This document shows positions 6,609-8,066 of a stretch of DNA of 10,411 nt, piece after piece. The DNA is from Promethearchaeota archaeon (lineage in GTDB: Archaea > Asgardarchaeota > Lokiarchaeia > Sigyniarchaeales > SOKP01), in assembly GCA_016840165.1 (NCBI GenBank), contig JAEOSU010000098.1, forward strand, positions 1-10,411, given 5' to 3'. Below the pieces are notes generated by a model. It made no database searches. It was given only the letters and a program-made list of their open reading frames with translations, and was not told the origin of the DNA. The stretch's first letter is position 1; every line of letters starts with the position of its first letter. Position numbers and translations under genes: made by a program.

Positions 6609-8066
6609 TTACTTTAATTCAGGATGCTTTTCTAATTCCTGTCTCATTTTTTCGAGTTTTTCACCATGCAAATCATAAACTTTGAAGAAGAGAATTGATC
6701 CAATAAGAGCTATTGAAGGAAAGAGAAACATCAAAGCTTTTATACCAATTTCTCTTAAAGCTGGATCAGCAACAACAGGTACATATTTACTCCATCCAGT
6801 TCCTGAAAATATGATATAAATAGTTGTAATTCCAAGTATCATTGAAAAACGATGAATAAAAGCATTTACACCATAATAACTAGCGGCTCTTTTCACACCA
6901 AACTTAAGTGCATCTTGATCAATTACATCACCATGAATTATATCTATAAAAAATAACGCAGCTGATAATCCAAATCCTATTGTTATAAAGACAATAAATG
7001 ATAATGTTCTACTAATTTCATTATTTGATAAAAGAATCAAAGGAAATAAGGTGATTATCCATATTCCTAAGCCAAGCATTAAACCTTTACGAGTGCCATA
7101 TTTTTTCCTAATCCTTGCTTGAAGAGGCATAAAGAATGCAGCAGATAAGAGTGCTAACATCAATGTAATTCCAATTAACATCGATCCTTCAGTTCTTCCA
7201 AGGACATAGACAGCATAGAGAGGAAATATTGTTAATAACACATTAAAACAATACCAAACAAGCATATTTCCAAGCGTGAATTTTATAAAGGTTCGATTTG
7301 AAAATGTTATTTTCAATGATTTGAAAAATCCCGGTCTCTTTTCAAAATCACTTGTTTGCTCTTCTTTTTCCTTTACTCCAAAGAAAATGAATAATATTGC
7401 CATGACCAATATTATTACAGCTAGAACTATACCTGAAATAATATATTTAGTGTTAATACTAGCAACTTCTGCAGCATATTCTACTGGATAAATAATTGGA
7501 TCAATTGTTGGAATTAAAGAAGGATAAACAATGAAAGTTGGAATTAATGAAGCAAGGATTACTGCAATCATAGTAAAGGCCTTTATAAATACATTTACAT
7601 CTCCTCTTTGTTTCTCTGTTGGAAACATTTCGGGGAATACAGCATTAGTATTTACTGAAAACATTGTATAGAAGAATTCAAAGGTAAAAATTATGAAAAT
7701 AAAATACCAAAACTTAAAATTGGCAGGTACTGTAAAAAGGAAAATCATTATCAACGCTAAAGGAACAAAGGATATAATTAAATACAATTTTCTTTTTCCT
7801 AATTTCCCTTTCTGTTTAGTTTTCTCACTTAATGCCCCCAGTAAAGGGTCATTAAACATGTTCCAAATACCCCACAAAACGAATCCAATCCACATTTCAA
7901 GCATTGTAAGACCTACTACTGCAAAATAAAAAGTAAAAACATAAATTGTAAACGCTTGATATGTTATTTGATCTTTGGTGACTTTTTGATTCACTCAAAT
8001 TTGATCTGGAAAAGCGTTTGTCCCAAATAGTATTTTTTCTTTTAAAGATACTTTTCTTTCACTCAT
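6609..8066 (-). CDS. MFS transporter, glycoside-pentoside-hexuronide (MelB/MFS_2) type, interrupted by a 33-nt insert; join(8001..8066, 6609..7967) gives 474 aa
   Basis: ATG 8066 is preceded by AGGGA and is in frame with the 7994 ORF. Translation is MSERKVSLKEKILFGTNAFPDQI*VNQKVTKDQITYQAF. The SLKEKILFG start is typical of GPH transporters. Motifs WNMFNDPLLGALSE..GKRK and DVID are present, with about 12 hydrophobic segments. Confidence 0.88.
7966..8007. repeat. 9-bp direct repeat (atttgatct at 7966-7974 and 7999-8007) flanking a 24-bp imperfect palindrome
   Basis: Read directly from sequence. The spacer is ttggtgactttttgattcactcaa. Confidence 0.92.
7968..8000 (-). other. Candidate 33-nt bulge-helix-bulge (BHB) intron in the MFS mRNA
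   Basis: mRNA reads CCA-GAUC-AA^A-UUUG-A-GUGA-AUCAAAAAG-UCAC-CAAA-GAUC-AA^A-UAACA. GAUC/GAUC forms a 4-bp central helix with a 3-nt AAA bulge 3' of it on each strand, plus an 8-bp intron stem with one bulged A. It contains in-frame UGA 7995-7997. Excision gives CCA GAU CAA AUA ACA (PDQIT). Confidence 0.7.

What the first reader, a model, noticed from the sequence alone, without database searches (positions are those of the whole stretch)
7968..8000. Candidate BHB (splicing-endonuclease-type) intron inside a protein-coding MFS transporter gene
Seen in sequence: the ORF track starts this gene at GTG 7994, but an in-frame ATG at 8066 gives a normal GPH-transporter N-terminus, blocked only by TGA 7995-7997. 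The peptide DQI occurs twice, 11 codons apart. On the mRNA the two GAUC tetramers (8006-8003 and 7973-7970) can pair as a 4-bp helix, each followed 3' by a 3-nt AAA bulge. The intron side is closed by UUUG/CAAA plus GUGA/UCAC with a 9-nt loop, and the exon side by an A-U pair. Established: archaeal EndA cuts BHB motifs after the second nucleotide of each bulge and RtcB ligates the exons. Such introns are common in tRNA/rRNA, while the well-characterised mRNA case is crenarchaeal cbf5. Applying the rule removes exactly 33 nt including the stop and yields ...FPDQITYQAF... (474 aa). Inference: a spliced mRNA intron in an ordinary transporter gene of a probable Asgard archaeon, which would make full-length expression depend on splicing. 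Caveats: the exon-side helix is only 1 bp at the junction, and because of the direct repeat, frame restoration is also expected from a plain insertion with duplication.
Basis: partly seen in the sequence, partly recalled or inferred. Interest (0 to 1): 0.93.

Follow-up and report, generated by a model that had tools for sequence, protein, structure and literature searches.

The report
tRNA-type mini-intron in Asgard transporter gene
A 33-base insert with a stop codon interrupts a sugar-transporter gene of an Asgard archaeon; it has the shape that the tRNA-splicing enzyme cuts, and comparison of related genomes indicates it must be removed from the mRNA, something the papers I could search document in archaea only for the cbf5 gene.

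Summary
A GPH/MFS_2 transporter gene on the minus strand (ATG 8066, stop 6609) carries a 33-nt insert (8000..7968) with an in-frame TGA. [quoted passage not shown]

The motif alone is not significant: minimal BHB geometry occurs about once per 1.5 kb in this 32% GC genome. The case is comparative.
- At least 9 species-level Promethearchaeota sequences carry the insert at the same site. About 35 orthologs lack it exactly.
- Four carriers have extra TAA stops inside the insert, which excludes TGA read-through; in three of them the TAA also closes the GTG-7994 reading frame.
- Exon 2 is intact in the eight carriers whose whole gene was read, with dN/dS about 0.11, the same as in intron-less relatives.
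- Exon 1 and the first 20 codons of exon 2 evolve as coding sequence.
- Every stem substitution keeps pairing, but only through wobble changes.

The genome encodes an (alpha-beta)2 EndA with the broad-specificity loop, and RtcB. The same cut rule exactly repairs its EF-2 and mevalonate kinase genes.

The insert is patchy in the gene tree (AU p = 0.0008), implying repeated precise loss or lateral spread.

No RNA data were available. This scan has already reported similar introns elsewhere in this genome, so this is one more member, notable for its gain/loss record.

The parts
8001..8066 (-). Exon 1: ATG 8066 plus 21 further codons (MSERKVSLKEKILFGTNAFPDQ). It encodes MFS_2 profile positions 2-10.
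   Evidence: An intron-less ortholog matches Pfam MFS_2 from profile position 2 at residue 14, whereas the GTG-started ORF matches only from position 11. Mean pairwise divergence among carriers is 4.3%, against 11% for the insert and about 38% upstream.
8003..8006 (-). H: the 5' strand of the central 4-bp helix (GAUC), in exon 1.
   Evidence: Invariant in all carriers.
8000..8002 (-). Bulge 1 (AAA). The predicted 5' cut lies between 8001 and 8000.
   Evidence: Fold. The cut rule was checked on the EF-2 and mevalonate kinase introns of the same genome.
7968..8000 (-). Predicted BHB intron, 33 nt, containing the in-frame TGA at 7997-7995.
   Evidence: Absent from about 35 orthologs and present in at least 9 species. 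Extra TAA stops occur inside it in L026, L034, L053 and L116.
7974..7999 (-). Intron-side helix h': UUUG/CAAA, a 1-nt A bulge, GUGA/UCAC, and a 9-nt loop at 7990-7982.
   Evidence: All 8 pairs are standard in every sequence. The only stem change is G-C to G-U. Four of the 9 loop positions vary.
7970..7973 (-). H': the 3' strand of the central helix (GAUC), in the intron.
   Evidence: The variants GGUC, GAUU and GGUU all still pair with GAUC through G-U.
7967..7969 (-). Bulge 2 (AAA). The predicted 3' cut lies between 7968 and 7967. The third nucleotide is the first base of exon 2.
   Evidence: The codon formed after splicing is AUA, UUA or AUU (Ile or Leu), as in the intron-less orthologs (I, L or M).
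6609..7967 (-). Exon 2: 452 codons plus the stop at 6611-6609.
   Evidence: Pfam MFS_2, E = 3e-44. Intact in all eight carriers whose whole gene was read. Pairwise dN/dS is 0.07-0.15 at dS 0.18-0.75.
8012..8019 (-). 5' strand of a distal exon-exon helix (AAACGCUU). It is separated from H by UUCC and one A-U pair.
   Evidence: 91-nt fold. No synonymous change in the six helix codons of any carrier, whereas 5 of the 6 vary among intron-less clade members. Suggestive only.
7950..7957 (-). 3' strand of the distal exon-exon helix (AAGCGUUU).

Best explanation
The 33 nt at 8000..7968 form a bulge-helix-bulge (BHB) mini-intron in the pre-mRNA of a GPH/MFS_2 transporter gene.

Proposed mechanism:
- The transcript folds so that GAUC of exon 1 pairs with GAUC near the 3' end of the intron, giving the 4-bp helix H.
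- Each H strand is followed by a 3-nt A-rich bulge. The intron closes into a 4+4-bp hairpin (h').
- The heterotetrameric (alpha-beta)2 splicing endonuclease EndA cuts after the second nucleotide of each bulge.
- RtcB joins the exons, and probably circularises the intron.
- The result is ...CCA GAU CAA|AUA ACA..., read as a 474-aa transporter.
- Unspliced mRNA yields only a 23-aa peptide.

The motif is of the relaxed HBh' kind. The exon-side helix next to the bulges is a single pair, with an 8-bp exon-exon helix further out.

Shown here: the insert, its structure and its conservation; that removal is needed to explain the selection on both exons; and that the machinery is present.

Inferred: that EndA and RtcB are the agents, and the exact cut sites. 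The direct repeat leaves several equivalent registers in this genome.

The intron was probably gained once at the base of a 17-sequence clade. It was then lost precisely several times or spread between alleles.
For: 1. The insert is defined independently of the fold. About 35 orthologs read PDQ[I/L/M]|TYQ without interruption. G000, L023, L026, L028, L029, L030, L034, L053 and L116 carry 33 nt at exactly this site. Protein-database N-termini show at least 6 further variants.

2. The insert is not translated. Extra in-frame TAA stops occur in L026, L034 and L116 (downstream of the GTG) and in L053 (in the loop). Codon changes inside the insert are mostly non-synonymous.

3. The gene is alive. 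Exon 2 is intact in all eight carriers whose whole gene was read. Median omega is 0.107 in carriers and 0.118 in intron-less clade members. Thirteen of the 20 codons between the intron and the first internal ATG vary, seven of them only synonymously; the amino-acid changes are mostly conservative and mostly confined to L053. Exon 1 stays open and diverges by only 4.3%.

4. The structure is conserved. All 91 pair cells are standard pairs. The four paired columns that vary change only A-U to G-U or G-C to G-U, while the loop varies freely.

5. The machinery is present. There are two EndA paralogs. The 201-aa alpha carries the Tyr/His/Lys triad and aligns without gaps to Aeropyrum pernix 3P1Z_B, including the Crenarchaea-specific loop lysine (NKPR). 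The 205-aa beta lacks the His. RtcB is present. Asgard EndA is reported to be (alpha-beta)2 with the L1 loop that confers relaxed-BHB cleavage (PMC5829648).

6. The same rule works elsewhere in this genome. A 30-nt insert in EF-2 (C1:7920-7949) and a 31-nt insert in mevalonate kinase (C87:6225-6255) have a 4-bp H, 3-nt bulges, a 5-bp h' and a 1-bp h. Cutting after the second bulge nucleotide restores DSD|DEEQERGITI and ILFGE|HFVVYG. A tRNA at C49:42942-43046 carries a 32-nt BHB intron of the same geometry.
Against: There are no RNA data of any kind.

No pair shows a compensatory change on both sides; support comes only from one-sided wobble changes in a small, related set.

The fold is only marginally more stable than shuffled sequence (z = -1.9). 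Minimal BHB geometry is common by chance.

The central helix and the identical bulges are an automatic by-product of the GATCAAAT direct repeat.

The exon-side helix next to the bulges is a single pair, so strict-type EndA would not cut it.

My de novo scans for BHB-bounded ORF-merging inserts showed no excess over decoy geometries. I therefore cannot give a genome-wide count of my own.
Confidence: 0.75

Rival explanations
1. Programmed translational bypass (a ribosome hop, as in phage T4 gene 60 or the byp elements of Magnusiomyces mitochondria). The ribosome would stall at UGA with peptidyl-tRNA on AUU, slide over the hairpin, and land just before ACA.
For: A stop codon follows the would-be take-off codon directly, and a hairpin starts at the stop. 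The insert is in frame and short.
Against: Bypass needs matching take-off and landing codons. Take-off would be AUU in all carriers, but the codon before ACA is AUA in 4, UUA in 4 and AUU in only 1. For the EF-2 and mevalonate kinase inserts of the same genome, no matched-codon hop gives the right frame, whereas the BHB rule does (reasoning from the sequence).
Confidence: 0.04
2. The insert is not removed. The gene is a decaying pseudogene, or it makes an N-terminally truncated transporter from GTG 7994 or from the first internal ATG (TMLEMW).
For: Gene callers annotate exactly such ORFs: 459-462 aa from the GTG and 429-431 aa from the ATG. The transporter has about 11 paralogs in this genome, so loss would be tolerable.
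Against: Omega is about 0.1 over dS up to 0.75, with no relaxation relative to intron-less relatives. The GTG frame is closed by a TAA in L026, L034, L053 and L116. The 20 codons upstream of the internal ATG evolve as coding sequence. Exon 1, which a truncated product would not need, stays open and conserved in every carrier for which it could be read. Truncation would also remove half of TM1.
Confidence: 0.08
3. The insert is removed from the RNA, but by something other than EndA and RtcB, for example another structure-specific nuclease and ligase pair acting on small hairpin inserts.
For: The exon-side helix is nearly absent. By hand I could not fit the RNase HII insert of this genome (C100, two TAA stops) to a clean 4-bp H with 3-nt bulges that gives a 30-nt excision.
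Against: The H, bulge and h' geometry is exact and conserved here, and also in EF-2, mevalonate kinase and a tRNA of the same genome. The EndA present is of the relaxed-specificity type. No other archaeal system that removes about 30 nt precisely is known to me (own knowledge).
Confidence: 0.08
4. Stop-codon recoding (TGA read as Sec or Trp, or read through), adding 11 residues to TM1. Alternatively, an assembly artefact.
For: The insert is in frame, and in G000 it has a single TGA.
Against: TAA stops occur in the insert of four carriers. The inserted residues are charged, are not conserved, and lie inside TM1. The same insert is present in MAGs from many independent studies, which rules out an artefact.
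Confidence: 0.01

Closest known systems
BHB intron in the cbf5 (pseudouridine synthase) pre-mRNA of Crenarchaeota (Desulfurococcales and Sulfolobales; PMC2738675 and the work it cites)
   Same: It is a BHB-type intron inside a protein-coding sequence. The host has a heteromeric, broad-specificity EndA. The intron shows lineage-specific presence and secondary precise loss, and it misleads gene prediction.
   Different: The phylum differs (Asgard / Promethearchaeota) and so does the gene (a non-essential GPH/MFS transporter). The intron sits 22 codons from the start. It is one of several such introns in one genome rather than a single case. Splicing here is inferred, not demonstrated.
BHB introns of Asgard tRNA genes (bioRxiv 10.64898/2026.10.13.758758; PMC5829648)
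   Same: The motif geometry and the size range are the same; a 32-nt tRNA intron in this genome is shown. Both show repeated gain and loss, with no identified route of arrival. The presumed enzymes are the same.
   Different: The substrate is an mRNA. The flanking exon helix is not a tRNA stem. The consequence is a change of reading frame or stop rather than maturation of a tRNA.
Unconventional cytoplasmic splicing of HAC1 / XBP1 mRNA (IRE1 cleavage, ligation by Trl1 or RtcB)
   Same: A short intron is removed from an mRNA by a structure-specific endonuclease and the tRNA ligase. The full-length protein depends on that step.
   Different: A different nuclease recognises twin stem-loops. That system is regulated by stress; no regulation is shown here. 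This comparison rests on my own knowledge, not on a test.
Translational bypass elements (T4 gene 60; mitochondrial byps)
   Same: A short, stop-containing, hairpin-forming insert sits in a coding sequence that still yields one protein.
   Different: The defining matched take-off and landing codons are not conserved here (tested, not met).

Membership tests
Archaeal BHB intron (EndA/RtcB substrate) | A central 4-bp helix flanked by two 3-nt bulges on opposite strands, each bulge 3' of its helix strand. | tested here: met
   GAUC (8006-8003) pairs with GAUC (7973-7970), with AAA bulges. This is the minimum-energy fold and is kept in all 9 carrier sequences read as DNA.
Archaeal BHB intron (EndA/RtcB substrate) | An intron-side helix h' directly adjoining the bulges. 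| tested here: met
   UUUG/CAAA plus GUGA/UCAC. All 8 pairs are standard in every sequence.
Archaeal BHB intron (EndA/RtcB substrate) | An exon-side helix h adjoining the bulges (required for the strict hBHBh' form). | tested here: not met
   Only one A-U or G-U pair adjoins the bulges. An 8-bp exon-exon helix lies beyond a 4 x 8 nt internal loop. The motif is therefore the relaxed HBh' form, as are the EF-2 and mevalonate kinase introns of this genome.
Archaeal BHB intron (EndA/RtcB substrate) | Cutting after the second nucleotide of each bulge restores the functional product. | tested here: met
   It gives PDQ|ITYQ, identical to the intron-less orthologs, and restores MFS_2 profile positions 2-10. 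The direct repeat weakens this test for this gene.
Archaeal BHB intron (EndA/RtcB substrate) | The host encodes an EndA able to cut relaxed motifs, and an RtcB ligase. | tested here: met
   Alpha and beta EndA paralogs are present. Alpha aligns to A. pernix 3P1Z_B with the specific-loop Lys. RtcB scores 556 bits (PMC5829648).
Archaeal BHB intron (EndA/RtcB substrate) | Covariation that supports the helices. | tested here: inconclusive
   100% of cells are paired. Four pairs vary on one side only, and none varies on both sides.
Archaeal BHB intron (EndA/RtcB substrate) | A spliced junction and a circular intron observed in RNA, or cleavage in vitro. | not testable with these tools
Programmed translational bypass | Matching take-off and landing codons flanking the gap. 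| tested here: not met
   Take-off would be AUU. The landing codon is AUA, UUA or AUU depending on the species.
Stop-codon recoding / read-through | A single recoded stop type, with the inserted residues under protein-level constraint. | tested here: not met
   TAA stops occur as well as TGA in four carriers. The inserted codons change non-synonymously.

The most novel reading that the evidence does not exclude
In this Loki-type Asgard lineage the tRNA-splicing machinery routinely processes messenger RNAs. Roughly 30-nt BHB mini-introns are scattered through ordinary and essential protein genes. They are gained at sites that can fold into the motif and lost precisely, so intron presence or absence is polymorphic between closely related species. 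That would be a working intron-exon system, with its own turnover, in the closest prokaryotic relatives of eukaryotes. This transporter gene would be its best natural gain/loss series.
Probability: 0.6. Interest if true: 0.85.

Novelty: new member of a known kind. Interest (0 to 1): 0.66.

Why it matters
In the papers I could search, splicing of an archaeal protein-coding mRNA by the tRNA endonuclease is documented only for cbf5 in Crenarchaeota (PMC2738675). Four searches found no report of such introns in Asgard protein genes.

If this reading is right, three things follow.
- Gene callers systematically truncate such genes. Every database entry for the carriers starts at the GTG or at an internal ATG.
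- Expression of an ordinary membrane transporter depends on EndA and RtcB.
- This locus offers a natural series of closely related alleles with and without the intron. That series can be used to study how BHB introns arrive and leave, a question the recent census of Asgard tRNA introns left open.

The finding also bears on how RNA-level gene interruption looked in the archaeal relatives of eukaryotes.

Tried and rejected
1. De novo genome scans for BHB-bounded inserts whose removal merges open frames. I tried four versions, with stricter stems and a codon-usage filter. None showed an excess over decoy bulge sizes: 242-387 loci against 207-419 (two runs hit the time limit). They are uninformative, not negative.

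2. Other copies of the intron sequence. The pattern TTTGAGTGAATN6GTCAC was searched in 135 genomes of the family. Among the matches listed, the five exact ones lie in four genomes (G074, G096, G099, G111) whose loop sequences equal those of the transporter-gene carriers L053, L026/L028 and L034; only the two G074 places were tied to the gene by coordinates. 72 further matches were not listed. Hits with 1-2 mismatches equal the reversed-pattern control. I saw no sign of a repeated mobile element.

3. Origin by tandem duplication. Outside the 8-nt repeat, the 25 nt match the upstream exon at 7 of 25 positions (by eye). That is the chance level.

4. The paralog at C36 flagged as having a TGA inside. 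This is simply its natural stop codon.

6. Rfam. No family matches anywhere in the window at E <= 1.

7. The RNase HII insert. By hand I could not fit it to a clean BHB that gives a 30-nt excision. I left it open.

8. A spliced transcript hidden among database proteins. No 474-aa protein is more than 89% identical to G000.

Full report
**What is in the sequence**

The window is a whole contig (C90) of a 3.6-Mb, 99.7%-complete MAG with 31.6% G+C. On the minus strand a GPH/MFS_2 transporter gene runs from ATG 8066 to the stop at 6609.

- After 23 codons the frame meets TGA at 7997-7995.
- The annotated-style ORF starts at GTG 7994. It matches Pfam MFS_2 only from profile position 11.
- An intron-less ortholog matches from profile position 2, using residues that exon 1 encodes.
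This covers the two GAUC tetramers, the AAA bulges, the UUUG/CAAA and GUGA/UCAC stems, the 9-nt loop and the 8-nt direct repeat GATCAAAT.
- The minimum-energy fold of 61-nt and 91-nt segments is exactly the proposed structure. The 91-nt fold adds an outer 8-bp exon-exon helix, 8019-8012 with 7957-7950.

**Is the structure more than chance?**

Taken alone, it is not.

- The fold z-scores are -1.9 and -1.0.
- A 4-bp H plus a 4-bp h' plus at least 1 bp of h, with 3-nt bulges, occurs 4,902 times in this AT-rich genome.
- The full architecture occurs 52 times.
- H and the identical bulges follow automatically from a direct repeat that contains the palindrome GATC.

The case has to be made by comparison with other genomes.

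**Comparative evidence that the insert must be removed**

Titles of related records place the organism in Promethearchaeota / Promethearchaeia, that is, Asgard of the Loki type.

- Among about 45 orthologs, some 35 read ...FPDQ[I/L/M]|TYQAF... without interruption.
- Eight species-level genomes, plus one metagenome contig, carry 33 nt at exactly this site: G000, L023, L026, L028, L029, L030, L034, L053 and L116.
- N-termini of database proteins reveal at least six more variants.
- Independent assemblies from many studies exclude an artefact.

The insert is not translated. L026, L034 and L116 have a TAA downstream of the GTG, and L053 has one in the loop. That rules out TGA read-through in those four species. 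In L026, L034 and L053 the TAA also closes the GTG-started reading frame; the GTG itself is conserved in every carrier.

The gene is nonetheless alive.

- Exon 2 is intact in all eight carriers whose whole gene was read.
- Pairwise dN/dS is 0.07-0.15 at dS 0.18-0.75.
- Median omega is 0.107 in carriers and 0.118 in the nine intron-less members of the same clade, so selection is not relaxed.
- Of the 20 codons between the insert and the first internal ATG, 13 vary: seven only synonymously, six with amino-acid changes that are mostly conservative and mostly confined to L053.
- Exon 1 stays open, with 4.3% mean divergence. The insert shows 11% and the upstream spacer about 38%.

Translation must therefore start at ATG 8066 and cross the site of the insert.

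**Evidence that removal follows the BHB rule**

*Structure.* Across the eight aligned carriers, all 91 pair cells of the 13 proposed pairs are standard pairs.

- The four paired columns that vary change only A-U to G-U or G-C to G-U. These include a synonymous CCA to CCG change in exon 1.
- Four of the nine loop positions vary freely.
- L116 carries GGUU as H', which still pairs with GAUC.
- No pair changes on both sides, so this is support, not proof.

*Outer helix.* Its six codons show no synonymous variation in any carrier, whereas five of the six vary among the intron-less clade members. This is suggestive only. Exon 1 has low synonymous variation throughout.

*Machinery.* The genome has two EndA paralogs.

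- One, of 201 aa, carries the catalytic Tyr/His/Lys. It aligns without gaps to the Aeropyrum pernix catalytic subunit 3P1Z_B through the Crenarchaea-specific loop, including the Lys44 equivalent.
- The other, of 205 aa, lacks the His.
- This is the (alpha-beta)2 type with the L1 loop that PMC5829648 reports for Asgard archaea and links to cleavage of relaxed BHB motifs.
- RtcB is present.

*Other genes of the same genome.* Leads from earlier notes of this scan were tested here.

- The single EF-2 gene carries a 30-nt insert with a TAA stop (C1:7920-7949).
- The mevalonate kinase gene carries a 31-nt insert (C87:6225-6255).
- Both have a 4-bp H, 3-nt bulges, a 5-bp h' and only 1 bp of h.
- Cutting after the second bulge nucleotide restores DSD|DEEQERGITI and ILFGE|HFVVYG exactly.
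- A tRNA at C49:42942-43046 has a 32-nt intron of the same geometry.

The transporter intron thus belongs to a class of relaxed HBh' mini-introns in this organism.

**Rivals**

- *Ribosomal bypass* requires matching take-off and landing codons. Take-off would always be AUU, yet the landing codon is AUA, UUA or AUU depending on the species. No matched-codon hop repairs EF-2 or mevalonate kinase.
- *A truncated or dead gene* is contradicted by the selection data and by the stops after the GTG.
- *Recoding* is contradicted by the TAA stops.
- *A removal system other than EndA* cannot be excluded without biochemistry. I could not fit the RNase HII insert to a clean BHB by hand.

**History of the insert**

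In both the protein tree and the codon tree, the carriers fall inside one well-supported clade of 17 sequences. They are interleaved there with nine intron-less sequences.

- Well-supported branches force at least three changes of state.
- The AU test rejects carrier monophyly (p = 0.00085).
- The simplest reading is one gain, followed by at least two further changes of state: precise losses or lateral spread of the allele.
- Carriers also occur in two GTDB genera.
- Losses could come from slippage between the direct repeats or from recombination with cDNA of the spliced mRNA. Either would give the observed junctions.
- I saw no sign of a mobile repeat, and outside the direct repeat the insert matches the upstream exon no better than chance.

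**Literature**

The searchable library documents splicing of an archaeal mRNA BHB intron only for cbf5, including its lineage-specific loss (PMC2738675). A 2026 preprint shows that Asgard tRNA genes are heavily and repeatedly interrupted by BHB introns, but it does not treat mRNAs (10.64898/2026.10.13.758758). No paper on Asgard protein-gene BHB introns was found.

**Limits and verdict**

- No RNA data were available.
- My motif-based genome scans had too much background to count such introns.

This is a new member of the cbf5-type class. The scan has already reported the same phenomenon on other contigs of this genome. What this locus adds is the clearest presence/absence series.

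Noticed in passing
G000:C1:7920-7949 (EF-2 gene, C1:7785-9965, + strand): The only aEF-2 gene has a 30-nt insert containing a TAA stop. It has H UCAG/CUGA, bulges AUU and AAG, and h' UAGAA/UUCUA. The BHB cut rule restores ...MTDSD|DEEQERGITI.
   Followed up: partly
G000:C87:6225-6255 (mevalonate kinase gene): A 31-nt frame-breaking insert has H GGCG/CGUC and bulges AAA and AAC. The cut rule restores the ILFGE|HFVVYG motif.
   Followed up: partly
G000:C100:6666-7295 (RNase HII gene): An insert of about 30 nt with two TAA stops splits GIDEAGR|GPVIGP. It contains a 6-bp hairpin, but I could not fit a clean 4-bp H with 3-nt bulges by hand.
   Followed up: partly
Whole genome G000: ARAGORN finds only 13 tRNAs, 8 of them with introns. 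Rfam RF00005 finds 20, and 11 of those span 84-132 nt. The genome is 99.7% complete, so most tRNA genes are probably too interrupted to detect.
   Followed up: partly
G000:C49:42942-43046 (- strand): ARAGORN calls this tRNA Glu(ttc). After BHB-rule removal of a 32-nt intron at position 32/33, with identical ACU bulges, it reads as anticodon UGC (Ala).
   Followed up: no
L053 and L111 (G074:C393 and G074:C330): In this carrier genome the assembly breaks near the intron. Two contig ends overlap across it. This may reflect strain heterogeneity for intron presence.
   Followed up: no
L030:2896-2901: In this carrier exon 1 begins GTG ATT instead of ATG AGT. This is a start-codon change that leaves the rest of exon 1 intact.
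   Followed up: no
Gene tree of the transporter: Carriers that are 88-95% identical to G000 lie in two GTDB genera (g1 and g22). Same-genus orthologs such as G018 and G024 are only 77-83% identical. The gene tree therefore disagrees with the taxonomy, which points to gene or allele exchange.
   Followed up: no
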